DNA of 62,911 nucleotides, taken from a virus. Location: the IMG/VR virus record IMGVR_UViG_3300045988_079349; one strand, written 5' to 3'. Position numbers and translations under genes: made by a program. A model generated the notes under the pieces. The model was not told the DNA's origin. It saw only the letters and a program-made list of their open reading frames with translations, and searched no databases. Positions 4,635-16,504 of this stretch are shown here, piece after piece (the stretch's first letter is position 1; each line of letters starts with the position of its first letter).

Positions 4635-4637
4635 TTG

Positions 4638-4990
4638 TTAGCTTAGAATAACCGGGTATGCTTTGCGGATAATGACTGTTACCATGCGCGGGGGCGTGTT
4701 ACAGAGAAAACGGTCATTCCTGATAAAATGTCCAATTCCCATATTCTGCCACAAAGTCCGGTTCAAGTCCTCATACCGCAAAGTATTATACTTAGATAGC
4801 CGGATATACCAATCATAGGTAAAAGCACTATCCGCAGGCATGGTATAATCTCTTGCCCGTTTATAGTTTCTCGTATGCTCGGCGGCTCGTCTTGCAAGGT
4901 CGTTTGTCGTGCCAATCTTGAGAATATAGCGTCCCTTTACGTCTACATAATGTCCGACGTATAGAAACTCCTTCTCCCGTGTCTGCGTGC
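4638..4990 (-). CDS. GIY-YIG / T5orf172-like domain protein; start codon unclear (possible pseudogene or non-canonical initiation)
   Basis: ...EKEFLYVGHYVDVKGRYILKIGTTNDLARRAAEHTRNY... in frame with the track ORF 4638..4841. No ATG, GTG or TTG lies in frame upstream of the motif before a TAA at about 5045. Confidence 0.4.
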
Positions 4991-5044
4991 TAACTATGAG
5001 ATACCTCTTTTCCGGTAGGGCCGGGGTAGGCCAGCCCTACCCCG

Positions 5045-5362
5045 TTATTTCTTAGGCTTCCGCTTTTGGACGAGCGTTAGCTCGAAACTGTCCCCACCGA
5101 TAGAAAACGCAATTTGGCGTTCCTTGTTTGTTATAGCAAGGTCAACAATCGAAAATTGACTGTTTTTCTCCAAAAACTCCGCCAACTCTGCGATTATGCC
5201 GCCTTTAGTTGCGTTTGGTTTGCGTTGCCGTGGTGTAAACTTGTAGGCGGTAGGGGTTTTCCTTGTGCCAGCGTGGGCGAATTTCTGCGCGATTTTCGCT
5301 TTATCGGGCGATAAATCGTATTGCGTTTTTTCGCCAGCTTCCACCGCCTTGTCATAGGCCAA
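5045..5362 (-). CDS. hypothetical basic protein (105 aa)
   Basis: ORF track. Confidence 0.5.
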   Translation of the reverse strand: MAYDKAVEAGEKTQYDLSPDKAKIAQKFAHAGTRKTPTAYKFTPRQRKPNATKGGIIAELAEFLEKNSQFSIVDLAITNKERQIAFSIGGDSFELTLVQKRKPKK

Positions 5363-5499
5363 TAGCTCCGCCTCCTCCTCTGGTGTCAGTTGGAGAGGCT
5401 TATATCTCGATAACCTCTCGGCGTCAGTGATACGGCTCGATATAGTCTCACCCCCTAAGATAGAGTAGGGCGGGGATTTTCGCCCCGCCCTATACGGGG

Positions 5500-5901
5500 T
5501 TACGCCATCTTAAAGAGAGACTTGCCCTTCTTCTCCTGACAGGTCACACGGCCGTCCAGCTTGAGCATCCGCACAAGGGCGGCGGCCTTCTGAGTGGAGA
5601 AAGCGGCCAGAGAGGGCACAGACTTGAAAATGTCGGTACAGGTCACGCCGTCGGTGTCATCGGGCAGGCCGGCCAGATACTCCATAATCTGCTCCTTCAG
5701 GCTCTCGTTCTCCTGCTGGGTCGGGGTCAGCTTCTTGTCACCGCCGGAGCTATTCTTCTTCCGCAACAGCTCCAGCTCATGGTCAATGACGGTCATGGCA
5801 ATCTCCATGGTTGTGCCATGCTTCACCTCCTCACCAGCCAAGAGGGCCTTAATGTCCTCGAAACGCTGGGCCTTAGTGATACGGATTTTCTTCTCGCTCA
5901 T
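5500..5901 (-). CDS. hypothetical protein (133 aa)
   Basis: ORF track; transcribed from the tandem promoter array upstream. Confidence 0.5.
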   Translation of the reverse strand: MSEKKIRITKAQRFEDIKALLAGEEVKHGTTMEIAMTVIDHELELLRKKNSSGGDKKLTPTQQENESLKEQIMEYLAGLPDDTDGVTCTDIFKSVPSLAAFSTQKAAALVRMLKLDGRVTCQEKKGKSLFKMA

Positions 5902-5934
5902 GGTAATACATCCTTTCTGGTTTTTAGGACTGTC

Positions 5935-6260
5935 CTTGTCCTTTGATTATATTGTACCACACTATCGGGAGTTTGTCAAGAGGTTTTTCAAACTTTTTTC
6001 AAGAGCTTTTGCCCTTTACTTGTTTGCCCTCTCTCGTTCCCCTTATAGTGTAACACACTTTGGAGAGTTTGTCAAGCCCTTTTTTATTCACTTTTCAAGG
6101 TTCCTTGCCTTGTTTTCTGTACTTATTATAGCACACTCACAAGGGCTTGTCAAGAGGTTTTTTGAAAGATTTTTGAAAGTTCGCTGTCGCTGTCTACCGT
6201 TCGTCTCTCTCACTTTCTGTACTTATTGTACCACACCACAAAGCGGATTTCAATTGTGAG
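5935..6260 (-). promoter_or_regulatory. tandem array of three (plus one degenerate) sigma70 promoters with extended -10, carried on ~85-bp direct repeats
   Basis: Minus-strand reads: TTGACAaactcccgatagtgtgGTACAAT; TTGACAaactctccaaagtgtgtTACACT; TTGACAagcccttgtgagtgtgcTATAAT. The plus-strand ORF 5594..6259 is an artefact of this repeat. Confidence 0.6.
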
Positions 6261-6424
6261 GTCCTCCAAAAGAACGTGATTTTGGGATAGGGTTTTTGTG
6301 CAAAATGTTGCACAAAACGGAATCAAATTTTTTGTGCAACATTTACAAGGAAAAAATCGGGTCGCGCCGCCCATGCGCGACCCGCCAAAATATAAAACAA
6401 AAAAAGAATGCCGAAGCCCTCTTT

Positions 6425-6606
6425 TTATCCGAAAAGGCAGTTATCTAAAAAGTCGAACAGGTGTTCATCCTCGGCGGGGATGGATACCAGTATATCCCCG
6501 TTTTCATCGGGTTCATCATGGCTCCATCCCATACGCTTGATGATTTCAAGCGCCGTGAAAACGGCATCGGGACAAAGGGAAGAAGTATATACAATTCTTG
6601 TTTGCA
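6425..6606 (-). CDS. hypothetical small protein (~60 aa, MQTRIVYTSSLCPDAVF...)
   Basis: AGAAAGAGGG RBS then ATG; shorter than the track ORF 6425..6709. Confidence 0.4.
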
Positions 6607-6608
6607 TA

Positions 6609-6758
6609 TTTAACCCTCTTTCTTTGAGTAGAACTGGTCGGCATAAAACTGCATTTCTTTCTGCGTTACCTTGGAAAGCATGGCCTTGATGGTAAATACA
6701 TCTGGGCACGTCCGCTCAAGTAGGAAGCGAATAGCCTTATTCTTTAATCCCTGAAACA
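6609..6758 (-). CDS. hypothetical small protein (~49 aa, MFQGLKNKAIRFLLERT...)
   Basis: GAAGGAGAAATAAGAA RBS then ATG; its stop lies 2 nt before the next start. Confidence 0.4.
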
Positions 6759-6789
6759 TTTCTTATTTCTCCTTCTACCGGGCGGGGCA

Positions 6790-7614
6790 TTAAGCCCCGA
6801 CCCGGATTGTCGGAATCTGCCGCAAACTTGCGGAAAGCTGACGCTGAAAATCTGTCATGGGCGGAAACTCCCGCTTGTTCTCATACAGGGCCTTTCTCAT
6901 GGGCTTATGCTGGCGCATACAGTACCACATGATTTCCGCCTCAATCAGAACATCTTCCAGTCCCGTGTGGCTTTCCTCAAAATCAGTGTTGCCGGAGATA
7001 AACCGCCACACGATTTCCGCAGTCTTGCGGGGAACGCCATTAGCCTGCACATACCCGTGTTCCTCACAGAATTTCTTATAGGTGGGCATCTGGCAAATGA
7101 CATCTTGCGTCATTTTCATAATGTCCCAAATTTCCACGCTGTCAAATGGGAACCAATACCGGAATTTGGAACAAGTGACCCAACGCTGAGTGACCCGAAG
7201 GGCGTTATCATCGAAGCGGGCATTATATGCGGCGACCTCCTTAATGCCGTACCGCTCGATAGTGTCCAGCATGGCCTGACGGATTTCATAGGTAGTAGCC
7301 ATCTTGCGACTGCCAGCCCGCAATTCCTCTACATACCGGGGGATTTTCCAGTTATAGTAGGCCGTCCGCATGAGATCCCGTTCATCGTTGAAAATGTCCC
7401 GATTTACAAAACTTGCGGTTTCGTAAATATTGCCCTTGGTGTCTACGACCGCCCAGCCGCAATCATACACCAAAACATTTGACATATCCATACGGACACG
7501 CTCCGGGGTAATGATTTCCCCATCCTCCCCGATTTCAGCGGGGACAGTCTCGGTTAATGTGTTGGCGGTTTCTGTATCGACCACCAGCACATAATGTCGG
7601 CGTTTATCAATCAT
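6790..7614 (-). CDS. DEDDh-family 3'-5' exonuclease (DnaQ-like)
   Basis: Exo I YVLVVDTETAN, Exo II AYNARFDDNAL, Exo III HTGLEDVLIEAEIMWY; 274 aa with no TAG. Confidence 0.8.
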   Translation of the reverse strand: MIDKRRHYVLVVDTETANTLTETVPAEIGEDGEIITPERVRMDMSNVLVYDCGWAVVDTKGNIYETASFVNRDIFNDERDLMRTAYYNWKIPRYVEELRAGSRKMATTYEIRQAMLDTIERYGIKEVAAYNARFDDNALRVTQRWVTCSKFRYWFPFDSVEIWDIMKMTQDVICQMPTYKKFCEEHGYVQANGVPRKTAEIVWRFISGNTDFEESHTGLEDVLIEAEIMWYCMRQHKPMRKALYENKREFPPMTDFQRQLSASLRQIPTIRVGA

Positions 7615-7639
7615 AATCTATCAAGTCCTTTCTCCTCTT

Positions 7640-7870
7640 GATGGTATTATTATAGCATATTTTATGCTTGGTGTCAAGAGGAATTTTATATTTTTTTTCT
7701 CCGTTGAAAAAGGCGTCGCGATAACCTCTCTCACAAAAGGGACTCTTTACCCTACTCTGGAGAACTTTTTCCTTTCCTCCTGACATGATAATAATACCAT
7801 AATTTTGGGATAACTTCAAGATGGGATTTTGCACAAGATTTTCACTTGAAAATTGTGCAACATCACAACA
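7640..7870 (-). promoter_or_regulatory. proximal promoter (TTGACA-17-TATAAT) plus upstream operator/promoter module
   Basis: Minus reads TTGCACAA-N16-TTGTGCAA then TTGAAG-17-TGgTATTAT. This module is almost identical to the one at 9195-9290. Confidence 0.55.
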
Positions 7871-7876
7871 GAAAAA

Positions 7877-7955
7877 AATGCGGCCCGCGGCGTTCAAGCG
7901 CGGGCCGCTCAAGTTATGAAAAAAATAAAAGCGGGGTTTTCCCCGCTTTTATTTA
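7877..7955. terminator. GC-rich palindrome (GCGGCCCGCGgcgttcaaGCGCGGGCCGC) followed by a bidirectional terminator hairpin (AAAAGCGGGGttttCCCCGCTTTT)
   Basis: Perfect stems; the second hairpin is flanked by A-runs and T-runs. Confidence 0.5.
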
Positions 7956-8144
7956 ATCCCTATGAATTACGGTCTTGAAAATGCTCCTAAGGATGCAAAT
8001 GATAATCCAGATGCCGAAAGTGATTTTCCACGAGAAGGTGAGGGCAAACGCCCAACAGATGAGCCAGATCAGCAGGGCCGTGCCGAAGAAAGAAACCACA
8101 CAGGTGACAAGAACTATAAGGGCGGCAACGAGAAAAGCAAACAT
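7953..8144 (-). CDS. small two-TM membrane protein (63 aa)
   Basis: ORF track; AGGAAGGAGA RBS; hydrophobic throughout. Confidence 0.5.
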   Translation of the reverse strand: MFAFLVAALIVLVTCVVSFFGTALLIWLICWAFALTFSWKITFGIWIIICILRSIFKTVIHRD

Positions 8145-8153
8145 TTTTGAAAC

Positions 8154-8324
8154 ATCTCCTTCCTATCGGGAACGCCTTAAATGGCGTTCCCGACTTTAAA
8201 GCACTTGGCCGAAGGCGACCAAAGAGAACCGGCCTTGCGCTTGGCGTCAGAACGGGCGCGGTCAACATCCTTGCCCACACCCACGAACACATGGCCCGCC
8301 GCAGTCTTAAAGTAGAAATTCATC
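8154..8324 (-). CDS. hypothetical small protein (~56 aa, MMNFYFKTAAGHVFVGVGKDVDRARSDAKRKAGS...)
   Basis: AAAGGAAG RBS then ATGATG. A perfect hairpin GGGAACGCCttaaatGGCGTTCCC spans its stop. Preferred over the track ORF 7987..8292, which has no RBS. Confidence 0.35.
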
Positions 8325-8459
8325 ATAGTAAAGCTTCCTTTCTTTTATGAGGGTTATCCCCTCTTGATGATTAAATTATACCACAATGCGGTGAGATTGT
8401 CAAGAACTTTTTTACGTATTTTCCAGATATGGGGCGGGGATTTCACCCGCCCCTTTTAT

Positions 8460-8924
8460 TTAGTCCAGATTGTTGATATATTCAATAATGTTTGTAGTTT
8501 GGGGGTCTACGGTATCCCCTAAATGCCAGCCGTTTCTAATTTTGCCGTTATCATCAAAGAGGATAAACGGCGGTTCATAGAAACTACGGAATACACATTT
8601 AGCTTTAGTTGTTCCATACGCCACACAATGGCATTTATGGGCCGGAAATTTATGCCTTGCAAGCCATTCCTTTTTGGCGGCTGTGACTGCTTTCTTATAT
8701 TCAGGGGGGCTTTCAGGGGGCAACCATGTAATAACTCGAACCTCCCACCCGTTACTAATTGCGTTTAGAAGCGCATTTCGGAGGGCGTTCATATCCCACA
8801 TGGGGGCGGCGTCTCGGAATGGGCTGGGGTCTCCATCGCGGAGTTTTTCAAGCCAGTTGGGGACTGCGTATAGATCTGCAATTGTCCCGTCCATATCAAA
8901 GCAGAGCATTTTTTTAGTTATCAT
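8460..8924 (-). CDS. HAD-superfamily 5'(3')-deoxyribonucleotidase-like protein
   Basis: N-terminal HAD motif I LCFDMDGTIADLY; NT5C-like size and layout. Confidence 0.6.
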   Translation of the reverse strand: MITKKMLCFDMDGTIADLYAVPNWLEKLRDGDPSPFRDAAPMWDMNALRNALLNAISNGWEVRVITWLPPESPPEYKKAVTAAKKEWLARHKFPAHKCHCVAYGTTKAKCVFRSFYEPPFILFDDNGKIRNGWHLGDTVDPQTTNIIEYINNLD

Positions 8925-8954
8925 ATATATATAACCTCCTTTTGTTTTATTATA

Positions 8955-9179
8955 CTACCTGTTGCCTATCTTGTCAACAAGTTTTTCAAAGAAATTTTTA
9001 TGCCGATATACCTTATAAGGCATTGACGTATAATCCACATAAATTAGAGGGTCGCGCAAAAGAATAGCTTGCATATAGACCCCATAATTCTCTGTGGTGG
9101 TAGTACCACCAAATTGGCGGCGGTAGATTTCAGCCACAGTTAAACACTCATTAGGCCGAATAAACTTTGAAGGTTTCAT
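8955..9179 (-). CDS. hypothetical protein (74 aa)
   Basis: ORF track; AAGGAGGG RBS. Confidence 0.5.
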   Translation of the reverse strand: MKPSKFIRPNECLTVAEIYRRQFGGTTTTENYGVYMQAILLRDPLIYVDYTSMPYKVYRHKNFFEKLVDKIGNR

Positions 9180-9194
9180 TTAGTGTCCCTCCTT

Positions 9195-9330
9195 CTTTCT
9201 GTACTAATAATACCATAATTTAAGGATAATTGCAAGATGACATTTTGCACAAGATTTCAAGTCAAAAATTGTGCAGAACTTACAAACAAGAAAACTCGGC
9301 GCGCTGTGAGCGTCAGCGCGCCGTCGAAAT
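9195..9330 (-). promoter_or_regulatory. operator/promoter module (second copy) plus GC-rich palindrome
   Basis: Minus reads TTCTGCACAA-N16-TTGTGCAA then TTGCAA-17-TGgTATTAT. Upstream palindrome CGGCGCGCTGtgagcgtCAGCGCGCCG. Confidence 0.5.
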
Positions 9331-9362
9331 TTTGGTATAAAAAAAGAGGGCCGAAGCCCTCT

Positions 9363-9821
9363 TTAATTTTCTGCAAATTGAGCTAGAAATTGCGCAGAAA
9401 GTCGAACCATATCATGCGCTGATTCTTTATCGTTTTTATAGCAAATAAAGCCGATTACCTCACCTTCTGCAATAATAGGAGTAACAAACAACGATTTTCC
9501 CTTCCATTCAGTACCCCAATTACGAATATTGAACCATTCATCCGGGGTCTTTGACATTCCGAAGGGGCGAGGGCCGCACAAAAGACTTGAATTATCAAAA
9601 ACCGACGCTAAAATGCCGTTAATGCTTAAAACTTTTTGAATATGTGCGGCCTGAGGAGCAAAAGAAGATAGTAGGGAATATTTCTTGAAAACCACCCCGC
9701 CATCTTCAATAAAGATTTCTAGCGGGTCGCCTTCCCGAATATTCATATTCCGACGAATTTCCTTAGGAATTACTACCCGGCCGAGATCATCAATGCGCCG
9801 CACAATGCCAGTTGCTTTCAT
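9363..9821 (-). CDS. SpoVT/AbrB-family transcriptional regulator (AbrB swapped-hairpin N-domain plus GAF-like C-domain)
   Basis: MKATGIVRRIDDLGRVVIPKEIRRNMNIREGDPLEIF matches AbrB/SpoVT. The likely start is this ATG rather than the track's TTG at 9842. Terminator AGAGGGCcgaaGCCCTCT plus T-run at 9343-9362. Confidence 0.7.
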   Translation of the reverse strand: MKATGIVRRIDDLGRVVIPKEIRRNMNIREGDPLEIFIEDGGVVFKKYSLLSSFAPQAAHIQKVLSINGILASVFDNSSLLCGPRPFGMSKTPDEWFNIRNWGTEWKGKSLFVTPIIAEGEVIGFICYKNDKESAHDMVRLSAQFLAQFAEN

Positions 9822-9872
9822 TTTTTTTATTAGAGAGGGCAAGGCTATTGCTTGCCCTCTCTACCTCCTTCC

Positions 9873-10268
9873 TTAAAACTCCTTGCGCAGTTCCTCAAGC
9901 ATGGCTGTTAAGGTGTTCATATCTCCACCCATTTCTAATTTGACGCACATGAGCCGGGTCTGCTCGTTAATCCATGTGTTAATCTCTGCGATTTCATCAT
10001 CCATTTTTTCCTTGGCCGGAGTATAAATGCCGCAAGTGCAGGTCTGGATGACATTCTCGCAATATCTGGAAGTCTTATAGCCCTTAGCCTGCATTTCCGC
10101 CTGGATAGTATCGCCCAGCTCATTGGCCGACTTGACGATAGCCTCCTTAAAAGCCTCCAGCGCGTCGAACTCTGGCTGATACCTCTCCCGGATAGCCGCC
10201 TCCTTACAGGCAGAAATCTTGCGAACCTCGTCACGAACATATTCTTCAATTCTCTTAGTAACACGCAT
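9873..10268 (-). CDS. hypothetical protein (131 aa)
   Basis: ORF track. Confidence 0.5.
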   Translation of the reverse strand: MRVTKRIEEYVRDEVRKISACKEAAIRERYQPEFDALEAFKEAIVKSANELGDTIQAEMQAKGYKTSRYCENVIQTCTCGIYTPAKEKMDDEIAEINTWINEQTRLMCVKLEMGGDMNTLTAMLEELRKEF

Positions 10269-10339
10269 TTCTAAAAACTCCCTTTCTGTTTTAATTTGAG
10301 AGGTTTTACTCGTTTCCCCTCTTTACATTTAATAGTATA

Positions 10340-10460
10340 GCAGATTTCGGGAGAAGTGTCAATCGTCAAAATGCACAACATTTGCAAACATATTTTGTTG
10401 AAACTGCTGATCCAGAAAAAATCGGACCGCGCCCATCCTGCGCGGTCCGCCCGCGAAAAA
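10340..10460 (-). promoter_or_regulatory. operator/promoter module with GC-rich palindrome
   Basis: Minus reads CAGTTTCAACAAaatATG, then TTTGCAAATGTTGTGCA, then TTGACA-17-TATACT. Upstream palindrome GGACCGCGCccatcctGCGCGGTCC. Confidence 0.45.
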
Positions 10461-10495
10461 AGACAAAAAGAAATGCCCCGAAAGGGGCAAATCTT

Positions 10496-10852
10496 TTAAA
10501 AATTTCCCTCTACATTGTCGCTACAAACCTCCCACCACATATCTTCATCCAGCAGGCCCAGCTCTTCAAGCCACCTGCAAAGTTCCTCTGCCTTTTTGGA
10601 AAGTGAAACCAGATGAACCATGCAATCCTGATCCCGGAAAACAAATATCTTGTCCTTTTCTTCGGTTTCCACTCCCTTCGGGACGGGTTCATTCCCATAG
10701 GCTTCGCCGCATTTCTGCATAAGCAGGCCCCGGTCAGTACCTACAATCTCCAGAAAATCGCCCTCGTTAATTCCGAGAGACTGGCGCACCTCCTTGGGGA
10801 TAACCACGCGTCCCAGATCATCCATCCTCCGAGTGATGCCGATAACTTTCAT
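10496..10852 (-). CDS. AbrB/MazE-family DNA-binding protein (118 aa)
   Basis: MKVIGITRRMDDLGRVVIPKEVRQSLGINEGDFLEIV. Confidence 0.7.
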   Translation of the reverse strand: MKVIGITRRMDDLGRVVIPKEVRQSLGINEGDFLEIVGTDRGLLMQKCGEAYGNEPVPKGVETEEKDKIFVFRDQDCMVHLVSLSKKAEELCRWLEELGLLDEDMWWEVCSDNVEGNF

Positions 10853-10914
10853 CTTTATACTTCCTTTCTAAATTTTATGGTAGGCGCCTAGTTGCCCAGG
10901 CGCCTTTATCCAGT

Positions 10915-11235
10915 TTACAGCATAGACAGAAGGGCGTCAATGTCAACCTCACTGGATACGCGGTCGGCCTCCTCGTCAAAGACTGCCTTCAAAATGTCGG
11001 CCGCATCATCTGGAGTACAGGCATCCTCAAGCAAGAACTTCCCCAGAGATTGAACCAAAGCTAAATCAGCCGAATGGCGGTCTACCGTACGCATCGCCAT
11101 ATGAAGGGCAATCAGGCCATCCTTATCCTCCTGGGTCATCTTAGGCAGAGTAGTCATAATATGCTTCCTTTCTGGTTTATAGAGTTTTCCTTCTCTTGAT
11201 AGTGTTATTATATCATAAAGGGCTAGGTTTGTCAA
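10915..11235 (-). CDS. hypothetical protein (106 aa)
   Basis: ORF track; promoter TTGACAaacctagccctttatgatataaTAACAC-like upstream. Confidence 0.5.
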   Translation of the reverse strand: MTNLALYDIITLSREGKLYKPERKHIMTTLPKMTQEDKDGLIALHMAMRTVDRHSADLALVQSLGKFLLEDACTPDDAADILKAVFDEEADRVSSEVDIDALLSML

Positions 11236-11241
11236 TACCCT

Positions 11242-11385
11242 TTACATCGGAGTATTTATAATATATCCGAACATTGCGATTTCAGCCGTGAAGAATATAG
11301 CAAGCCAGAAATGCTCTTTTACCAGAGCCACTACATACTGGATCGTTAGGCAAATGGCAAGAATGATTATGATAAAAGTTGTCAT
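11242..11385 (-). CDS. small membrane peptide (~47 aa, MTTFIIIILAICLTIQYVVALVKEHFWLAIFF...)
   Basis: ATAGGAGAAACAAAT RBS then ATG; below the 60-aa track cutoff. Confidence 0.35.
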   Translation of the reverse strand: MTTFIIIILAICLTIQYVVALVKEHFWLAIFFTAEIAMFGYIINTPM

Positions 11386-11412
11386 ATTTGTTTCTCCTAT
11401 GGTGGAGAGGGA

Positions 11413-11652
11413 TTACACCCTCTCCACCTCGATAATTTCCATGTCGAAATCTTCCCAGCAGGCCCCAAGGAGCATATCATGCCGCAGGTCGTTTTCGCTT
11501 TCGTAGTCCATATCCTCCAGAATATCCTGCCAGTTATCGGGATTATATTGCTTTTTCAGCCAGTCCCAGCCCGCGCCACGAGCTAACCGCAGATCATCAG
11601 ATACACAGATAATCTTCTCACGATTATCAGCCATAACCACATAGCTTTTCAT
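11413..11652 (-). CDS. hypothetical acidic protein (79 aa)
   Basis: ORF track. Confidence 0.5.
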   Translation of the reverse strand: MKSYVVMADNREKIICVSDDLRLARGAGWDWLKKQYNPDNWQDILEDMDYESENDLRHDMLLGACWEDFDMEIIEVERV

Positions 11653-11898
11653 TTTCTTTTACTCCCTTTCTTGAGGGCTTTTGTTCTCCCCTCTTGATGG
11701 TCTAAGTATACCAGAACGGGAGGGGAAAGTCAAGCGATTTTGGGAAATTTCCTCTCGTCAATTTCACCAATAAACTGATCCAAAAATTGTGCAAATTGCC
11801 TCTTGACAAAAAATTCCGGCCGCTGCGCTCATGCGCGGCCGGCTGAACAATATATTTTGAATTGGAAAAGAAATTCCTCCCATTTTGGGAGGAAAATC

Positions 11899-12096
11899 TC
11901 AATCTACATATTCTCGATTTAAAACTTTTACAACCTCTTCAGGTTTACGTCGAGACCGGAAAAGAGCATCTTCATAGGAATAACCAGAGATATTGTCGGT
12001 CGAGCCATTTTCAAGCAAAATCTCAAATTCATACATATCTCTCAACTTCCTTTCTTTTGATAACTTAATTTTAACATAAGAATTTCGGGAAGTCAA
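11899..12096 (-). CDS. hypothetical protein (65 aa)
   Basis: ORF track only. Confidence 0.35.
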   Translation of the reverse strand: MTSRNSYVKIKLSKERKLRDMYEFEILLENGSTDNISGYSYEDALFRSRRKPEEVVKVLNREYVD

Positions 12097-12329
12097 TCGG
12101 TACTTTCAACAATTTTCATTCCATTTGCTTGTATAATTCGCATAGCTTCTTCAAGAGAAGTATTGTCAACGGAGCCACAGTCGATACAAATATATTTTCT
12201 GCCATCCTTTACCATAGTAGTGAAATAATATTCTTGACCAGAAACAAGGCCCATCTACTCTCGTAGTCTTACGGGAATCATGATGCGCCCACTTGAATCC
12301 AATTTCCTTGAGAAAGTAGTTTCTTGCAT
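12093..12329 (-). CDS. AbrB/MazE-like swapped-hairpin protein containing one in-frame TAG (78 aa)
   Basis: MQETTFSRKLDSSGRIMIPVRLRE[TAG]MGLVSGQEYYFTTMVKDGRKYICIDCGSVDNTSLEEAMRIIQANGMKIVESTD. The AbrB-domain alignment (RKVDELGRVVIPIELRRTLGI...) runs straight across the TAG. Confidence 0.55.
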
Positions 12330-12581
12330 TTTGATAAATAAATTCTAGTGACCTAGGTTCGTGCGAAAAACGACTCCATCACGGGAATCGCCGATTTGTA
12401 ACAATCGGAGGGAATAATTACCACTCGCAAGGCATTTTCTGGCAGAACTGAGCCATAGGACAATTCTTACAAGAATCCTAGTTCAAACAGAACTCCAGAA
12501 TGACCGCAAGAGCTTTCAGCACTTCTAAGGTTATTAGAAAACTCCTTTCTTTGTTTTTCTATATATATTATAGAATATTTT

Positions 12582-12616
12582 TTTAAAAAAAGCAAGGGCT
12601 GACTTATGCCAGCCCC
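12582..12616 (-). terminator. intrinsic terminator for gene 12710..12961
   Basis: Minus reads GGGCTGGCATAAGTCAGCCC followed by TTGCTTTTTTT. Confidence 0.5.
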
Positions 12617-12709
12617 AGCCTCTGCAACCAGACAAGGTGATATTTCCCCAATCTTACCAAAACTGTTCCATATCCCTTATTAGTCCAAACGGTGGAACCA
12701 ATAGGATAT

Positions 12710-12961
12710 TCACGCGGAAGTCTCTCGATAGTCATTGATAATCCCCTTTTCTGTAAAGAATCCGACAAGATGTTCTGCTGCACTGGACTTATGCGGAGTT
12801 ATCAACAACCACGCACCGCGAAGATTATCAATAGTCGATAAAGACCAGTCCGCGCCCATCTGACTAATTAAGCACTCGAAACTTGCTCGATCCTCAAGAG
12901 AGTTAAACGAAACTACATATTTTCCCATGCGGAAATCGACCTCCATAGAATTTTTTATCAT
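12710..12961 (-). CDS. hypothetical protein (83 aa)
   Basis: ORF track. Confidence 0.45.
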   Translation of the reverse strand: MIKNSMEVDFRMGKYVVSFNSLEDRASFECLISQMGADWSLSTIDNLRGAWLLITPHKSSAAEHLVGFFTEKGIINDYRETSA

Positions 12962-13000
12962 GGGGAGTGGAAGTCATAGACCTCCACTCCCGCAGGTTTC

Positions 13001-13240
13001 TTATGCGTTAATGTAGATATTAACGCCACCTTCTTCTCTCATTTCAATCTCAGTCACCTGCTTCTTGAACAGGGCGCTGAGGTCATCGCCATAAAAGTCA
13101 CCGCCGAGCTGGAGCTTCCATTCCTTGTCAAACCGGAAATGTGCGCCGGTATTGCTGTCGATTACCTGAATAGCCGCATCCTCTTCCAGACAGAAAGAGT
13201 ATTGCCGGAACAAAATCACAACGTCTTTGAAGCACACCAT
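13001..13240 (-). CDS. hypothetical protein (79 aa)
   Basis: ORF track; promoter TTGACA-17-TGgTATATT upstream at about 13290-13330. Confidence 0.5.
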   Translation of the reverse strand: MVCFKDVVILFRQYSFCLEEDAAIQVIDSNTGAHFRFDKEWKLQLGGDFYGDDLSALFKKQVTEIEMREEGGVNIYINA

Positions 13241-13339
13241 TTCTTTTACTTCCTTTCAAATTCTTTTTGTGGTCTGTCTCTCTGGACAAGTATAATATAC
13301 CATACCCACAAAGGAATGTCAAGCGATTTCGGGAGAAAA

Positions 13340-13441
13340 ATTCTCGGCAGATTGCACAAACTTTTGGCCATATAATTGTTGAAACTGCCGAACAAACAAA
13401 AATTCGGGCCGCGGCGCACGCTGGCGGCCCGGCGAAAAGTC
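13340..13441 (-). promoter_or_regulatory. operator/promoter module with GC-rich palindrome
   Basis: Minus reads CAGTTTCAACAAttATATG, then TTTGTGCAA, then TTGACA-17-TGgTATATT. Palindrome CGGGCCGCGGcgcacgCTGGCGGCCCG. Confidence 0.45.
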
Positions 13442-13640
13442 AATATGGGAAAGTGCACAAAAATATCCGGCAATCTTTGTGCAGATTACCGGATAGAATA
13501 TTAAAACATCACAGTAAAGAAGTTATACTCACTATGCTGTGGATTTGGATAGCTGTTATCTGCTACTATGTCAGCCCAGCTCAAAGCAATCCAGAGAAGG
13601 AGAGCGGCGCAAAGGCCGCCTCCTATATACCGTAGCACTC

Positions 13641-14027
13641 TCATACCGCAGGCTCCTTCCCCAGAAGGTCATACCGTCCAGGGATTTCGGCATTAAGCCT
13701 ATCCCATTCTTTGGCAGTTACCCTGTCATACTCATTATAATAGTTATCCCGAATGATATAAAGCTGTTCTGTGGTGTCCTTATCCAGAGCGGCCTTATAC
13801 TCGTCAAGAGAGGCAGGACGAGTGTGAAGCTTGCTGTTGATATACCGTGCATTGATAAAGGCCCAATGTGGCATGACGGCCTTAGAGATAGCATTAAAAG
13901 CGTCTAAGTCAAGGATGATACCATCATCCACAGCGGCCGCCTTCACATTCATGGAGTAACGGAGAACACGCACGAACTCAGGCTTATTAAAGGTGGGATT
14001 GGTGTAATACTTGATGAAGTTAGACAT
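13641..14027 (-). CDS. hypothetical protein (128 aa)
   Basis: ORF track. Confidence 0.5.
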   Translation of the reverse strand: MSNFIKYYTNPTFNKPEFVRVLRYSMNVKAAAVDDGIILDLDAFNAISKAVMPHWAFINARYINSKLHTRPASLDEYKAALDKDTTEQLYIIRDNYYNEYDRVTAKEWDRLNAEIPGRYDLLGKEPAV

Positions 14028-14082
14028 ATCTTTTATCCTTTCTCCCCGTATAGCCGTTAGGTCAGCTTCTTGTGGTATATGG

Positions 14083-14232
14083 TTACTTGATAGCTTCGCC
14101 GGTAGACAGGTCTACAATCCAATAGTCAGGATTGACAAGCTCATGGTCTACTCTCCATCTTGCGTGTGCAAAAGTAGACGGCTCATAGTATCGCATTTTG
14201 TCACCCACTAAAACCTGCAACTGATACCTCAT
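14083..14232 (-). CDS. hypothetical small protein (~49 aa, MRYQLQVLVGDKMRYYEPSTFAHARW...)
   Basis: AGAAAGAAGG RBS then an internal ATG of the track ORF 14083..14346. Confidence 0.4.
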   Translation of the reverse strand: MRYQLQVLVGDKMRYYEPSTFAHARWRVDHELVNPDYWIVDLSTGEAIK

Positions 14233-14303
14233 AATACAGCCTTCTTTCTTTTGATTATTATAACCCTGCCTTGCCTTGGGTTTTGCAAGGCAGGGTTTAT
14301 AAA

Positions 14304-14681
14304 CTACTGCTGATTGAGTTCTTTTTGCTGGTCTTTCGTTGCCCAATCAAGAGAGGTTCTGACCGTCGGACGCTTGCGGTATTGCTCCGCCTCTGCCTCT
14401 GTGCCGCCTTTAGCTAAAGCGTAGGCTTTCCAGTCTATCGCTCCTTTAGCGGTAGTCTCTTTATAGACCACCGCATGAACGGCGCCCTTTATCTGGACTG
14501 TGCCGTACAGATAAGAGGTCTTATCCGTGGTCTTGAACTCTTTCCCCAAACGGGTGAAAAGCTCTTTCGCTTTGGCCTTGGCCGCTTTCTCTGCAACCTC
14601 TGCCGCCGCTACTGCTTGCTTAGCGGCTAAGTACTCCATGATGACCTTCCTATCATCATTAGTAAAATCAATCTTTTTCAT
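14304..14681 (-). CDS. hypothetical Ala/Lys-rich protein (125 aa)
   Basis: ORF track; promoter TTGACA..TGaTACAAT at about 14725-14765. Confidence 0.5.
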   Translation of the reverse strand: MKKIDFTNDDRKVIMEYLAAKQAVAAAEVAEKAAKAKAKELFTRLGKEFKTTDKTSYLYGTVQIKGAVHAVVYKETTAKGAIDWKAYALAKGGTEAEAEQYRKRPTVRTSLDWATKDQQKELNQQ

Positions 14682-14849
14682 CTTTTTTACTCCCTTTTTT
14701 TTTGTGGTGTGGTTCTCTTGTGTTCTGCCTGTATTGTATCAAGTCTTTTAAGACTTGTCAATACTTTTTTTTGAAAAATTTTTAATTTTCAAGGTTCAGG
14801 GGTTTTGCCCTTGTCCTAACTGGACAAGTCCAGTTTACACCCATTGACC

Positions 14850-14945
14850 CCATTTGTCAACAGTTTTTTTGCACAAGATCCGCATTGTCCTGTTGTGCAG
14901 TTTGCACAAGTCTTGTCTTTACGCGCGTGCGCGTGTTCCTTTAGG
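14850..14945 (-). promoter_or_regulatory. cluster of TTGTGCAA/TTGCACAA operator boxes plus GC-rich palindrome
   Basis: ttttttgcacaagatccgcattgtcctgttgtgcagtttgcacaag followed by cgcgcgtgcgcg. Confidence 0.4.
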
Positions 14946-15317
14946 GCGTGGCTTTTTACTTTCATGCTTTAATGAGTGAAAGAGGCTGACTACACTTCAG
15001 CACTTTACCATGTGAAAGGGGAGGGTGTATTTTGGGAAAAACTGGAAATTTTTTCGCAAATTCGTTCTGCCACGCCATTTCAAAATCCAAATCGTACTTT
15101 CAATCTCAATAACGGAAAAAAGATGAAAGGCTAAATTTAACCTTTCATCTTTTTTCCACAACTAGGGCAAAAATTATATTCTCCTGCTTCATCATAGGTA
15201 ACTAATAAATCGCCATCTTCCTTATAACACGAATGAGTGAATCCGCAATTTAAACACAAAGAATATAAGGCTCCATTCCCCTTAAATTTTATAATAAGCC
15301 ATTTTCCATTCTATCCC

Positions 15318-15755
15318 TTAATGGTATAATTGATATTTTCTGCCAATCTTATCAATCTCCTCAGCTTCCATTGGCCTAAATCCAATACAAGTGAGAGTCC
15401 CTTCAGGACTCTCTTTTTCCAGCTCTGTCCTGCAAGCATCGTAAATCAAAAAGTAATCTTTATACTCCTCCATACCGAGCTCTTTAGCTGCTTCGACCGC
15501 CCGCAATAAATCATCTTTATTCTTCGCGCGGCAAACAACTTTAGTCTCTGCCCCCGTTATCCAATCATGGAATAAGTCTGTATCGAGACTTATATCCATA
15601 TGATACATAATGCCATCTCTTTCCCGAACCACTTCTTTGCTTCCCCAAAGAATCTTTTCCAAAAGAAAAGCAATAGAAGCATGGGAAACTTGCGCAGCTA
15701 GCTTACCCGGAGACATATTTAAATCTTTTCTAGCTATAATTAACTGTTTATACAT
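15318..15755 (-). CDS. pth2: peptidyl-tRNA hydrolase, PTH2 family
   Basis: LIIARKDLNMSPGKLAAQVSHASIAFL matches the PTH2 signature (vVRtDLkMgkGKiaAQcsHA). Confidence 0.65.
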   Translation of the reverse strand: MYKQLIIARKDLNMSPGKLAAQVSHASIAFLLEKILWGSKEVVRERDGIMYHMDISLDTDLFHDWITGAETKVVCRAKNKDDLLRAVEAAKELGMEEYKDYFLIYDACRTELEKESPEGTLTCIGFRPMEAEEIDKIGRKYQLYH

Positions 15756-16504
15756 TCTTTACCTGCTTTCAAAAATGCTCTAAAATTCTGGGAATTGCGG
15801 TCAGGAATTGCAAAATAAATATTTGGAATATTATAATTGCGAGCTGCGCCTATGAGCAAGGTTGCGACCGTATACGGATCTTGCATAAAAACTCCACAAC
15901 CCCAGGCTCCCGCGACTAGATTTTCCACACCGTTTTCCTCAGCAATCTGATACATAAAGTGAATTCGATTTTCAAGAACTCTATCATTCTCGCTTTTACT
16001 CACACTCTGGTATCTATGCGCCGTTCGGAAATTCGGGGCCGCGCAAGTTATAACATCTGCTTCCTTTTGTTTGTTATTCCGCTCGAATACTACACTAGGA
16101 GAATACAGCGCTCTATTCAAGTATAAAGCCTTATTTAACCTCTGCCGATTCCATGCGTAATACGTCCCATCAAAAGCAAGAAGAATAGGGTAAAGATTGG
16201 ATTCATGACACAGAGCCTCTTCTTGCGCAGGACTACCTTCTAGGAAGAAACCACCAGGACTTTTATAACTGGCATAGTTAAGAATTGCTGTTCTACCATT
16301 GTCAGATAAGTTGAATAGACAAGATACGCTATCCATATCTGTTAGAGTAAAAGCTGGTTTCTGATTGCCGGATTCATGCTGTGTAAAAGAATCTGGACTA
16401 TATACATATGTGCGCTCGATAGATAATTTAGTGTTTGCGGCAAGTCTAGTTTTAATATCTTCATAATGAGCTCGTGCCTTGATTGCGCGCTCCTGTTTTG
16501 TCAT
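15740..16504 (-). CDS. macro-domain / bacterial PARG-like protein (TIGR02452/DUF2263 family)
   Basis: NYASYKSPGGFFLEGSPAQEEALCHESNLYPIL and LVAGAWGCGVFMQDP match the DUF2263 PARG-like signature motifs. Confidence 0.6.
   Translation of the reverse strand: MTKQERAIKARAHYEDIKTRLAANTKLSIERTYVYSPDSFTQHESGNQKPAFTLTDMDSVSCLFNLSDNGRTAILNYASYKSPGGFFLEGSPAQEEALCHESNLYPILLAFDGTYYAWNRQRLNKALYLNRALYSPSVVFERNNKQKEADVITCAAPNFRTAHRYQSVSKSENDRVLENRIHFMYQIAEENGVENLVAGAWGCGVFMQDPYTVATLLIGAARNYNIPNIYFAIPDRNSQNFRAFLKAGKECINS

What the first reader, a model, noticed from the sequence alone, without database searches (positions are those of the whole stretch)
6290..14945. Seven-fold repeated early regulatory module: GC-rich palindrome - CAGTTTCAACAA box - TTGTGCAA/TTGCACAA operator - sigma70 promoter
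Copies lie at about 6290-6386, 7790-7910, 9195-9330, 10340-10460, 11745-11845, 13340-13441 and 14850-14945. The copies at 7790-7870 and 9195-9290 are near-identical over about 75 nt and contain TTGCACAA-N16-TTGTGCAA overlapping a TTGMAR-17-TGgTATTAT promoter. This looks like a regulon of early promoters under one palindrome-binding repressor. Candidate repressors are the RHH, wHTH and AbrB-family proteins encoded nearby.
Basis: seen in the sequence. Interest (0 to 1): 0.6.

Follow-up and report, generated by a model that had tools for sequence, protein, structure and literature searches.

The report
Repeated terminator–operator–promoter cassettes in phage
A gut phage that reads the TAG stop codon as an amino acid separates its small early genes with eight copies of one cassette: a strong transcription stop signal, a conserved palindromic protein-binding site about 60 bases upstream of the start, and a host-type promoter; the same binding site also sits in front of ordinary genes of gut Clostridia, so the factor that reads it is probably the host's and is still unknown.

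Summary
The repeat is real and non-random. It makes sense only when read on the minus strand.

- **Statistics.** TTGTGCAA occurs 12 times against 1.7 expected, and 10 of the 12 lie in 6296-14909. The inverted repeat (IR) TTGCACAA-N16-TTGTGCAA (≤3 mismatches) occurs 8 times against 0.33 expected, once per module.
- **Module layout.** The GC-rich "palindrome" in M1-M6 is an intrinsic terminator (-20 to -24 kcal/mol plus a T-run). About 20 nt after it comes the IR, then 8-9 nt (sometimes 29 or more), then a TG-extended sigma-A promoter.
- **CAGTTTCAACAA.** This is a decayed distal half-site, not a separate box.
- **Position.** The IR lies upstream of the core promoter, centred near -60, where the box-less early promoters carry an A-rich UP-like tract.
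- **Conservation.** In 30 non-redundant relatives the box occurs 136 times in the early 10 kb and 4 times in the late 10 kb.
- **Shuffling.** Indels between relatives end inside modules, as with T4 PeSL cassettes.
- **Beyond this phage.** The IR-plus-promoter pattern also precedes host genes (nrdD, crt/bcd, surface proteins) and other mobile elements of Clostridia.

A single phage repressor is therefore not the best reading. A host-type factor acting from about -60 is more likely. Its identity and its sign (activator or repressor) remain unknown.

The parts
6359..6383 (-). M1 terminator hairpin. The T-run is at 6351-6358.
   Evidence: (-21.9 kcal/mol).
6308..6339 (-). M1 inverted repeat (IR) TTGCACAA-N16-TTGTGCAA, exact. 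An extra TTGCACAA lies at 6296-6303, and TCCCAAAAT at 6279-6287.
6225..6253 (-). M1 promoter TTGAAA-17-TGgTACAAT. Its own proximal box has decayed. Three further box-less promoters follow (6153-6125, 6075-6047, 5979-5951) before gene 5500-5901.
7880..7908 (-). M2 terminator hairpin. The T-run is at 7872-7879. It follows the gene-proximal terminator at 7923-7954 of gene 7953-8144.
   Evidence: (-24.4 kcal/mol, z -3.8).
7829..7860 (-). M2 IR, exact.
7791..7819 (-). M2 promoter TTGAAG-17-TGgTATTAT, with TATCCCAAAATT (7801-7812) in the spacer. Its leader runs into the box-less promoter 7677-7649 of gene 6790-7614.
9297..9323 (-). M3 terminator hairpin. The tail is at 9283-9296. It follows the terminator at 9343-9364 of the SpoVT-like gene 9363-9821.
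   Evidence: (-21.1 kcal/mol).
9245..9276 (-). M3 IR. The distal box is CTGCACAA (1 mismatch).
9207..9235 (-). M3 promoter TTGCAA-17-TGgTATTAT, driving gene 8955-9179.
10423..10449 (-). M4 terminator hairpin. The T-run is at 10416-10422. It follows the terminator at 10474-10489 of the AbrB-type gene 10496-10852.
   Evidence: (-22.9 kcal/mol).
10371..10402 (-). M4 IR. The proximal box is TTGTGCAT.
10334..10362 (-). M4 promoter TTGACA-17-TATACT, with TCTCCCGAAATC (10343-10354) in the spacer. It drives genes 9873-10268 and 9363-9821.
11816..11842 (-). M5 terminator hairpin. The T-run is at 11808-11815. It follows the terminator at 11874-11894.
   Evidence: (-20.9 kcal/mol).
11763..11794 (-). M5 IR. 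The distal box TTGCACAA is exact. The proximal box has decayed to TTGGTGAA.
11705..11747 (-). M5 TTTCCCAAAATC (11736-11747) followed by promoter TTGACT-17-TGgTATACT (11733-11705). This is a class-2 spacing. It drives genes 11413-11652 and 11242-11385.
13405..13431 (-). M6 terminator hairpin. The T-run is at 13398-13404.
   Evidence: (-20.0 kcal/mol).
13352..13383 (-). M6 IR. The distal box is TTCAACAA (the second CAGTTTCAACAA). The proximal box TTGTGCAA is exact.
13294..13336 (-). M6 TCTCCCGAAATC (13325-13336) followed by promoter TTGACA-17-TGgTATATT (13322-13294). The box lies 29 nt upstream of the -35 hexamer. It drives genes 13001-13240, 12710-12961 and 12604-12738.
13453..13495 (-). Eighth, degenerate IR (CTGCACAA-N16-TTGTGCAC, 13453-13484). 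It is interleaved with the terminator hairpin 13464-13495 of gene 13501-13644.
14869..14909 (-). M7 IR (14869-14900, distal box CTGCACAA) plus a compact palindrome TTGTGCAA-ac-TGCACAA (14893-14909).
14832..14860 (-). M7 promoter TTGACA-17-TAAACT, which has a weak -10 hexamer. The box-less promoter 14761-14733 of gene 14304-14681 follows.
14921..14934 (.). M7 CGCG palindrome ACGCGCACGCGCGT. It is not a terminator. It is conserved as TACGCGCGCGTA in relatives. Function unknown.

Best explanation
The repeats are one family of composite intergenic cassettes in the leftward, standard-code early block of a large TAG-recoded siphovirus of gut Clostridia. IR below means the inverted repeat TTGCACAA-N16-TTGTGCAA.

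**Layout, read 5' to 3' on the minus strand**
1. A strong intrinsic terminator: a 10-bp GC stem, a loop of about 7 nt, and a T-run.
2. About 20 nt later, an upstream element that is palindromic over up to 60 bp. Its core is a distal TTGCACAA (or decayed TTCAACAA), N16, and a proximal TTGTGCAA.
3. Then 8-9 nt (class 1) or 29-30 nt (class 2).
4. A sigma-A promoter with a 17-nt spacer and a TG-extended -10 hexamer. A second element, TYTCCCRAAAT, often lies in or next to the spacer.

**Shown by sequence analysis**
- The anatomy, its non-random occurrence and its conservation.
- The fixed register of the box relative to the -35 hexamer.
- Covariation in the hairpin arms.
- Recombination junctions between relatives that fall inside the cassettes.
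- Presence of the same IR-promoter arrangement outside this phage family.

**Inferred**
- The hairpin stops read-through from the many strong constitutive promoters upstream, so each cassette's promoter is insulated.
- The IR is bound by a dimeric or tetrameric protein centred near -60 (near -81 in class 2). This is where the other early promoters carry an A-rich UP-like tract. From there the protein would act on RNA polymerase, most simply through the alpha C-terminal domain, as class I activators and phi29 p4 do.
- The IR also occurs upstream of chromosomal genes and in unrelated mobile elements, where it frames element-specific operators. The factor is therefore most likely present in the uninfected cell, that is, host-encoded or of a host-type family.
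- The phage-specific TYTCCCRAAAT element in the spacer is the better candidate for a phage-specific repressor site.
- The cassettes also act as portable homology for gene shuffling.

**Left open:** whether the IR-bound factor activates or represses, and what it is.
For: **Non-random occurrence**
- IR and box statistics.
- TCCCRAAAT occurs 9 times against 1.8 expected, all on the minus strand between 4483 and 15037.

**Register relative to the promoter**
- Across the window plus 80 related loci, the proximal box lies 8-9 nt upstream of the -35 hexamer in 59 unique contexts and 29-30 nt upstream in 21.
- The distal box lies 32-33 nt upstream in 34 contexts.
- Distal-to-proximal box spacing of exactly 24 nt (start to start) was seen 30 times.

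**Early versus late**
- In 30 non-redundant relatives the box occurs 136 times in the early half and 4 times in the late half.

**Terminators**
- Folding energies are -20 to -24.4 kcal/mol.
- 35 of 65 unique modules have a GC hairpin whose 3' end lies 18-21 nt upstream of the distal box. They show 28 different arm sequences.
- A T-rich tail follows on the transcribed strand in 31 cases and on the other strand in 6.

**Boxed versus box-less promoters**
- 69 unique boxed promoters have TTTTGTGCAaTTTGcCaA where 583 unique box-less promoters have an A-rich tract.
- Boxed promoters have a 17-nt spacer in 97% and a TG extension in 89%. The -10 hexamer is TATACT in 49%, and the -35 hexamer is TAGACA in 31%.

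**Shuffling**
- The L001 cassette is identical to window M4 up to the T-run and to window M3 from the distal box onwards. It lacks window 9295-10413.
- Modules are 74-87% conserved in L003-L006, while the genes they flank are replaced.

**Occurrence outside this phage**
- The pattern IR+8/9+TTGAC gave 55 hits in genome contigs, against a hand-estimated chance expectation of less than 1.
- About 19 of these are this phage family binned into MAGs.
- The rest stand upstream of NrdD, enoyl-CoA hydratase, acyl-CoA dehydrogenase, BspA-LRR, Big_4, dockerin and PadR genes.
- In four Coprococcus species both boxes are invariant while the spacer varies.
- There are 97 hits in IMG/VR. Of the first 80 loci, 32 have no homologue of the window's early proteins.
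Against: - No binding protein is identified, and nothing here measures transcription.
- Boxed promoters are still near-consensus, so they do not obviously need an activator.
- The cassettes are paralogues that undergo gene conversion. Shared features such as TATACT and the 21-nt class-2 shift could therefore reflect descent rather than function. The class-2 -35 hexamer TTGACT sits where the class-1 -10 hexamer TATACT sat.
- Perfect IR-promoter matches are rare per host genome: about 30 non-phage hits across 185,579 species. That is fewer than a large host regulon would give.
- In many modules the palindrome extends to a mirrored TGTCAA. The bound protein might therefore also cover the -35 hexamer and act as a repressor.
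Confidence: 0.6

Rival explanations
1. One phage-encoded repressor (AbrB/SpoVT-type, RHH or wHTH) binds the inverted repeat (IR) at all these promoters and shuts off an early regulon. This would resemble MrpR binding SPBRE in SPbeta.
For: - There are three AbrB-family genes in the block: 9363-9821, 10496-10852 and 12093-12329.
- The 12093-12329 family is the most widely conserved DNA-binding gene of the early region, present in 34 of 80 loci.
- Gene 9363-9821 is a full-length SpoVT homologue.
- The palindrome often extends to a mirrored TGTCAA, so a bound protein could reach the -35 hexamer.
- The SPBRE/MrpR system is a precedent for one repressor acting on about 10 repeated sites (PMC10516654).
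Against: - The IR core never overlaps the -35 or -10 hexamer.
- Class-2 modules place the IR 29-30 nt upstream of the -35 hexamer.
- The IR occurs upstream of host genes and in other mobile elements that have no AbrB gene nearby.
- Relative L063 has 6 boxes but no AbrB-type hit within 10 kb. L004 and L005 have 8 boxes and only the 12093-type gene.
- Host spoVT promoters lack the IR.
Confidence: 0.22
2. The 60-bp palindrome is a small mobile or recombinogenic promoter unit. It would resemble a MITE, a Correia element or a "mobile promoter", supplying outward-facing -35 hexamers. Its boxes would then persist by descent and gene conversion, not because a regulator binds them.
For: - The architecture TGTCAA-N8-TTGCACAA-N16-TTGTGCAA-N8-TTGACA is palindromic, and some sites match the search pattern on both strands.
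- It is found in front of unrelated genes in phages, ICE-like elements and chromosomes.
- Junctions between relatives fall inside the modules, and gene conversion occurs between modules.
Against: - Only the two 8-mers and their register are conserved. N16 and N8 are free to vary, even between orthologous Coprococcus sites. That is the signature of selection on specific contacts, not of recent copying.
- No target-site duplication was evident and no transposase was seen.
- In other elements the spacers hold element-specific operators.
Confidence: 0.1
3. The inverted repeat (IR) acts as RNA or single-stranded DNA, forming an 8-bp stem with a 16-nt loop. Alternatively, it marks an antisense promoter.
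For: - The two 8-mers are complementary.
- The mirrored TGTCAA reads as a -35 hexamer on the plus strand.
Against: - The IR lies between a terminator and a promoter, so little of it is transcribed.
- The N8 arms are not complementary (my reading of the sequences).
- No -10 hexamer follows the mirrored -35 hexamer. That position falls inside the GC hairpin.
Confidence: 0.03

Closest known systems
PeSL (promoter-early stem-loop) regulatory cassettes of T4-type phages (Arbiol et al. 2010, PMC2839356; Comeau et al. 2014, PMC4122927)
   Same: - Many copies of a composite unit made of a consensus host-sigma early promoter and a stem-loop terminator.
- The copies lie between small variable genes of a hyperplastic early region.
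- Insertions, deletions and replacements between related phages end in the cassettes.
   Different: - The host is Gram-positive and the phage is an unrelated siphovirus.
- The stem-loop sits about 70-90 nt upstream of the -35 hexamer, rather than within or next to the core promoter.
- A conserved 8-N16-8 inverted repeat lies between terminator and promoter. PeSLs have only an AT-rich tract there.
- Mini-circle formation was not tested.
SPBRE repeated element and its repressor MrpR in Bacillus prophage SPbeta (PMC10516654)
   Same: - One short motif is repeated in about ten promoter regions of a large Firmicutes siphovirus.
- That phage is distantly related by TerL (33-35% identity to SPbeta-type YonF).
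- The motif was predicted in silico long before its binding protein was found.
   Different: - SPBRE is a 15-bp site confined to the prophage and bound by a phage-encoded recombinase-fold repressor.
- The motif here is an 8-N16-8 inverted repeat (IR).
- It is not confined to the phage.
- No MrpR-like gene was looked for outside this window.
phi29 p4 sites, and host Spo0A sites at phi29 early promoters (PMC3100819, PMC2731898)
   Same: - p4 sites are inverted repeats with a long central spacer (CTTTTT-15 bp-AAAATG). They lie upstream of sigma-A promoters, and from there p4 both activates and represses.
- phi29 also shows that a virulent phage can place binding sites for a host regulator at its early promoters.
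   Different: - The half-site sequence differs, and the spacer is 16 nt rather than 15.
- No p4 homologue was seen among the annotated early genes.
- The box is not a Spo0A box. Canonical TGTCGAA stands upstream of host spo0A.
- TGNCGAA is only weakly enriched in the early region: 195 early against 147 late.
Class I activator sites (CRP at -61.5/-82.5) and UP elements. This comparison rests on textbook knowledge.
   Same: - The dyad centre lies near -60 or -81.
- The inverted repeat (IR) occupies the place of the A-rich UP-like tract of the box-less early promoters.
   Different: - The half-sites are 24 bp apart centre to centre, not 10-11 bp.
- The sequence is not A/T-rich.
- No activator is known.

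Membership tests
Intrinsic (rho-independent) terminator | A GC-rich stem-loop immediately followed by a T-run on the transcribed strand, downstream of a stop codon. | tested here: met
   - M1-M6 have stems of 8-11 bp and folding energies of -20 to -24.4 kcal/mol, with a tail such as ATTTTTT.
- In relatives, 31 of 35 hairpins have a T-rich tail on the transcribed strand, against 6 on the other strand.
- M7 does not meet the feature.
Intrinsic (rho-independent) terminator | The structure rather than the sequence is conserved. | tested here: met
   There are 28 distinct 5' arms among 35 hairpins. All pair, and stem length (about 10 bp), loop length (about 7 nt) and distance to the distal box (18-21 nt) are constant.
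Sigma-70/sigma-A promoter | A -35 hexamer TTGACA, a 17±1 nt spacer and a -10 hexamer TATAAT, optionally with a TG extension, upstream of an RBS and a start codon. | tested here: met
   - Searches give the promoters.
- Boxed promoters in relatives have a 17-nt spacer in 97% and a TG extension in 89%.
- Activity itself cannot be tested here.
PeSL-type mobile regulatory cassette | A composite of an early promoter and a terminator stem-loop, repeated between variable small genes. | tested here: met
   The definition is taken from PMC2839356.
PeSL-type mobile regulatory cassette | Differences in gene content between close relatives have their end points in the cassettes. | tested here: met
   - The L001 hybrid cassette joins M4 and M3, and window 9295-10413 is absent from L001.
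- Modules are conserved while flanking genes are replaced in L003-L006.
PeSL-type mobile regulatory cassette | Cassette-bounded mini-circles form. | not testable with these tools
   This needs PCR or sequencing of infected cells or virions.
Phage repressor regulon (lambda-type operators; SPBRE/MrpR type) | The operator overlaps the -35 hexamer, the -10 hexamer or the transcription start. | tested here: not met
   - The inverted-repeat (IR) core ends 8-9 nt or more upstream of the -35 hexamer.
- Only the separate TYTCCCRAAAT element lies in the spacer, in 15 of 69 boxed promoters.
Phage repressor regulon (lambda-type operators; SPBRE/MrpR type) | The motif is specific to the phage that encodes the repressor. 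| tested here: not met
   The motif stands upstream of host genes and in unrelated elements.
Phage repressor regulon (lambda-type operators; SPBRE/MrpR type) | A cognate phage-encoded DNA-binding protein exists. | tested here: inconclusive
   AbrB/SpoVT-type genes are present, but no association with the IR could be shown.
Class I activator site | The site is centred near -61.5 or further upstream by whole helical turns. | tested here: met
   The dyad lies near -60 (gap of 8-9 nt) and near -81 (gap of 29-30 nt). The class-2 register may also be explained by descent.
Class I activator site | The core promoter is sub-optimal and depends on the activator. | tested here: inconclusive
   - 18 of 121 boxed promoters match 12 of 12 hexamer positions.
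- 336 of 856 box-less promoters with 10 or more matches do so.
- Most boxed promoters are still 10-11 of 12 with a TG extension.
Spo0A box | The sequence TGNCGAA. | tested here: not met
   - The box is TGTGCAA.
- Canonical TGTCGAA is found upstream of host spo0A.
- TGNCGA[AT] lies next to the proximal box in only 23 of 108 cases.
- Early versus late counts are 195 and 147.
UP element | An A/T-rich tract from -40 to -60. | tested here: not met
   Boxed promoters lack it, and the 583 box-less promoters have it.
Rfam RNA families | A match at the gathering score. | tested here: not met
   No match in the whole window.

The most novel reading that the evidence does not exclude
TTGCACAA-N16-TTGTGCAA, centred near -60, is the operator of a so far undescribed transcription factor that is widely conserved in gut Clostridia, possibly of the AbrB/SpoVT family. 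This factor would control highly expressed host genes (surface proteins, nrdD, butyrate genes) and the early promoters of many of their phages and mobile elements. The recoded phage would first exploit the factor and then override it with its own AbrB paralogue. That paralogue's gene (12093-12329) and the small gene in front of it are the only early-block genes with in-frame TAG codons. They can therefore be made full-length only once TAG is read as glutamine, which would make them a genetic-code-gated timer for early shut-off.
Probability: 0.12. Interest if true: 0.8.

Novelty: new variant of a known kind. Interest (0 to 1): 0.55.

Why it matters
- **A ready-made model for these phages.** Almost nothing is known about transcription control in phages of gut Clostridia, or in stop-codon-recoded phages. 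This family offers dozens of aligned, naturally varied copies of one regulatory cassette, with a clear early/late and standard/recoded split.
- **A testable question.** The 8-N16-8 element is shared with host promoters and other mobile elements. A single pull-down or reporter experiment could reveal a general promoter-proximal factor of Clostridia.
- **A practical use.** The cassette could serve as a portable strong-promoter and insulator chassis for organisms that are hard to engineer.
- **An extension of known biology.** The shuffling evidence carries the PeSL idea, regulatory cassettes acting as recombination hot spots, from T4-like phages of Proteobacteria to an unrelated phage lineage of Firmicutes.

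Tried and rejected
- **Nucleotide search of annotated phages.** This gave no close relative. Megablast found nothing and blastn found only short hits.
- **Rfam.** There was no match at the gathering score over the whole window. At relaxed E-value on 12200-12700 only chance-level hits appeared.
- **Literature search for the 8-mers.** It returned only primers and unrelated sites.
- **Spo0A.** The box differs from the 0A box, and the enrichment is weak.
- **SpoVT autoregulation.** Three host spoVT loci (L136, L138, L139) have sigma-G-type promoters and no inverted repeat (IR).
- **Linking the IR to AbrB genes.** Co-occurrence within the phage family does not discriminate. No AbrB gene lies near the IR outside the family.
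- **PHROGs and Pfam on the other early proteins.** No further DNA-binding protein turned up.
- **Non-coding RNA at 12330-12600.** Most of this stretch is a small Cys-rich ORF with an in-frame TAG, whose start codon is ATA in the window but ATG in relatives.
- **Motifs compared from memory.** These were Rex, CRP/FNR, CodY, TnrA, the TraR box, the Noc-binding site and the Spx -44 element. None fits both the sequence and the spacing, and none was pursued.
- **MITE reading.** No target-site duplication was evident (by eye only), no transposase was seen, and the N8 arms are not complementary.

Full report
**Abbreviation.** IR below means the inverted repeat TTGCACAA-N16-TTGTGCAA.

**Context**

The window is part of a large phage.
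- Under the standard code, the plus-strand block 18.2-57.5 kb has almost no long ORFs. Long ORFs appear when TAG is read as sense. These include a 2,937-codon tape-measure-like ORF (35421-44234), a terminase, a portal and tail proteins.
- In relatives, CAA replaces some of these TAG codons.
- Relatives in IMG/VR are contigs of 100-200 kb.
- The closest annotated TerL proteins belong to large Firmicutes siphoviruses: the Enterococcus VRE9_4/H1/EF1 group, Geobacillus E3, and phAss-1 at 44% identity.
- phAss-1 was described as a TAG-recoded gut phage with a predicted Clostridia host (PMC10607447).
- The finding lies in a different block, about 4-17.7 kb. That block is transcribed leftward, uses the standard code and has 43-46% GC against about 33% elsewhere.
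- This block holds about 30 small genes. Nearly every one or two of them has its own consensus TTGACA-17-TGnTATAAT promoter and its own terminator.

**Check of the observation**

All seven sites exist.
- The exact 8-mer occurs 12 times against 1.74 expected, and 10 of the 12 lie in 6296-14909.
- The full inverted repeat TTGCACAA-N16-TTGTGCAA with up to 3 mismatches occurs 8 times against 0.33 expected. There is one per claimed module, plus an eighth at 13453-13484.
- CAGTTTCAACAA is exact only in M4 and M6. In both, TTCAACAA stands exactly 16 nt upstream of the proximal box. It is therefore the decayed distal half-site, and across relatives that position tolerates TTCAACAA, TTCCACAA and TTACACAA.
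- M2 and M3 are about 83% identical from the distal box to the -10 hexamer, by my count from the sequences.
- The proximal box ends 8-9 nt upstream of the -35 hexamer in M2, M3, M4 and M7, 29 nt upstream in M5 and M6, and 54 nt upstream in M1. In M1 the promoter's own box has decayed, and the intact IR is a second, upstream unit.
- The IR therefore does not overlap the promoter.

**The GC-rich palindrome**

- On the minus strand, M1-M6 each have a hairpin with a stem of about 10 bp and a loop of 7-9 nt, followed by ATTTTTT or a similar tail. Folding energies are -20 to -24.4 kcal/mol. Three of them are the top three terminator-like hits of the scan.
- Each comes after a first, gene-proximal terminator.
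- Across relatives, 35 of 65 unique modules have such a hairpin. These show 28 different arm sequences but constant stem and loop lengths, and the 3' end always lies 18-21 nt from the distal box.
- The T-rich tail is on the transcribed strand in 31 cases and on the other strand in 6.
- This is conservation of structure and orientation, as expected of an intrinsic terminator that insulates the promoter behind it.
- M7 has only a weak CGCG palindrome.

**The inverted repeat**

In the window plus 80 related loci:
- Start-to-start spacing of 24 nt between a distal TTGCACAA and a proximal TTGTGCAA occurs 30 times. No other spacing exceeds 6.
- The proximal box is 8-9 nt from the -35 hexamer in 59 unique contexts and 29-30 nt in 21. 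The distal box is 32-33 nt from it in 34.
- The N16 spacer and the 8-9 nt linker vary freely, while the 8-mers do not.
- In 30 non-redundant relatives the 8-mer occurs 136 times in the early 10 kb and 4 times in the late 10 kb.

With the -10 hexamer at -12 to -7 and a 17-nt spacer, the dyad lies near -60 in class 1 and near -81 in class 2.

Aligning 69 unique boxed promoters against 583 unique box-less early promoters shows a clear contrast. The box-less ones carry an A-rich, UP-like tract from -40 to -60. The boxed ones have TTTTGTGCAaTTTGcCaA in that place.

Boxed promoters form a distinct subclass:
- a 17-nt spacer in 97%
- a TG extension in 89%
- a -10 hexamer of TATACT in 49%
- a -35 hexamer of TAGACA in 31%

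In many modules the symmetry extends outward to TGTCAA-N8-[IR]-N8-TTGACA, about 60 bp in all.

A second element, TYTCCCRAAAT, lies 16-17 nt after the proximal box.
- It falls inside the promoter spacer in class 1 and just upstream of the -35 hexamer in class 2.
- It occurs 9 times in the window against 1.8 expected, always on the minus strand.
- It is present in 22% of boxed promoter spacers and 5% of box-less ones.

**Cassettes as recombination substrates**

- Against L001, which is 96-98% identical in shared parts, the window has an extra 1.1 kb (9295-10413) carrying the 131-aa gene and the SpoVT-like gene.
- The L001 cassette is identical to window M4 through the T-run and identical to window M3 from the distal box onward.
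- In more distant relatives (L003-L006) the modules are 74-87% conserved, while the genes behind them differ. Genes 13001-13240 and 12710-12961, for example, have homologues only in L001 and L002.
- This is the behaviour described for PeSL cassettes of T4-type phages (PMC2839356).

**The element is not phage-specific**

- The pattern IR+N8-9+TTGAC has 21 specified bases. It was found 55 times in one genome per species of 185,579 species, where I estimate less than one chance match.
- About 19 of these loci are this phage family binned into MAGs.
- The others stand upstream of ordinary genes: NrdD (with an NrdR-box-like sequence after the promoter), a divergent enoyl-CoA hydratase / acyl-CoA dehydrogenase pair, BspA-type LRR proteins, Big_4 and dockerin proteins, and a PadR regulator.
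- In four Coprococcus species the IR precedes orthologous secreted-protein genes. Both 8-mers are invariant and the spacer varies. In C. catus the neighbours are housekeeping genes.
- IMG/VR holds 97 further stretches. Of the first 80 loci, 32 lack any homologue of the window's early proteins.
- In several of these other elements the same frame carries three copies of an element-specific palindrome: upstream of the distal box, inside N16, and inside the -35/-10 spacer. A small RHH gene lies divergent from the frame.
- The 8-mers therefore look like a generic part of a promoter frame, on which element-specific operators are hung.

**Who binds**

This is unresolved.
- The early block encodes three AbrB-family proteins. 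One of them is a full-length SpoVT homologue, about 40% identical to Oscillospiraceae SpoVT.
- The 12093-12329 type is the most widely conserved DNA-binding gene of the early region.
- Co-occurrence does not discriminate between candidates.
- No AbrB gene lies near the IR outside the phage family.
- Three host spoVT genes have sigma-G-type promoters and no IR.
- The box is not a Spo0A box.

**Most likely mechanism**

- Shown: the anatomy, statistics, register, conservation, shuffling and wider distribution.
- Inferred, point 1: the hairpin insulates each cassette from the strong promoters upstream.
- Inferred, point 2: a dimeric or tetrameric protein bound at the IR acts on RNA polymerase from about -60, in place of an UP element.
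- Inferred, point 3: that protein is available in the uninfected cell.
- Inferred, point 4: TYTCCCRAAAT is the better candidate for a phage-specific repressor site.
- Precedents: phi29 p4 acts from inverted repeats with a 15-bp spacer upstream of sigma-A promoters and both activates and represses (PMC3100819). Host Spo0A sites sit at phi29 early promoters (PMC2731898).
- Open: the sign of regulation. The position argues for activation or recruitment. The near-consensus core promoters and the outward extension of the palindrome to the -35 hexamer argue for repression.

**Verdict**

This is a real, conserved regulatory cassette of a known general kind: PeSL-like promoter-terminator cassettes, and SPBRE-like repeated operators. 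Its new component is an 8-N16-8 upstream element shared between Clostridial phages, mobile elements and host genes. I found no description of that element in the literature I could search. Interest is moderate.

Noticed in passing
18235-57472 (+) and 57954-62710 (-): The late genes can be read only with TAG as a sense codon. There are up to 103 in-frame TAG codons in one ORF. ARAGORN finds no tRNA gene in the window, so any suppressor tRNA must lie elsewhere in the genome.
   Followed up: partly
12093-12596 (-): This is an operon with its own promoter (TTGCTT-17-TATAAT). It encodes a small Cys-rich ORF at 12418-12534, whose start codon is ATA here but ATG in relatives and which has an in-frame TAG. 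It also encodes an AbrB-like gene at 12093-12329 with an in-frame TAG at codon 25. These are the only genes of the early block with internal TAG codons. Relatives carry TAG at other positions, or CAA instead. The DNA is 92% conserved with L003-L006, where neighbouring genes are 70-88% conserved.
   Followed up: partly
4000-17700 against the rest of the window: The early block has 43-46% GC, and the rest of the window has about 33%. This is an unusually sharp compositional split within one phage genome.
   Followed up: no
8955-9179 and 8460-8924 (-): Gene 8955-9179 ends in TAG and is in frame with the next gene. Reading TAG as sense would fuse the two into a 239-codon ORF. Genes 14304-14681 and 17216-17683 also end in TAG.
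   Followed up: no
58616-59842 (-) and 60851-62710 (-): There is a reverse-transcriptase-like ORF with a YMDD-type motif. Near it lies a large ORF with repeated Ig-like segments and a C-terminal domain. Together they look like a diversity-generating retroelement. This rests on the sequence alone and was not tested.
   Followed up: no
5951-6253 (-): Four tandem sigma-70-type promoters within 300 bp stand upstream of gene 5500-5901. Several share the initial transcribed sequence AGTACAGAAAG.
   Followed up: no
Early block of the window and of L001-L080: The box-less early promoters (583 unique) have an A-rich UP-like tract. Their leaders often begin with ATCAAGAGGRGA, a purine-rich, SD-like 5' end. 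About 15-20 consensus promoters occur per 10 kb.
   Followed up: partly
14921-14934: The CGCG palindrome ACGCGCACGCGCGT is conserved as TACGCGCGCGTA in relatives. It lies upstream of the triple-box module M7 and is not a terminator. Its function is unknown.
   Followed up: no
L125, L097, L126/L092/L135, L140/L158/L187, L180, L213: In other phages and ICE-like elements of Clostridia, the same IR (TTGCACAA-N16-TTGTGCAA)-promoter frame carries three copies of an element-specific palindrome: upstream of the distal box, inside N16, and in the -35/-10 spacer. A small RHH gene lies divergent from the frame (L187 6925-7110; L126 584-781).
   Followed up: partly
15318-17683 (-): The early block also encodes a PTH2-type peptidyl-tRNA hydrolase, a microbial PARG/macro-domain protein and a truncated FolD-like protein. 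These are possible host-takeover or anti-defence functions.
   Followed up: no
About 4640-4960 (-): A likely GIY-YIG/T5orf172-like gene (…YILKIGTTNDLARRAAEH…) appears only when the longer frame is read. The ORF list misses it. I recognised it by eye only.
   Followed up: no
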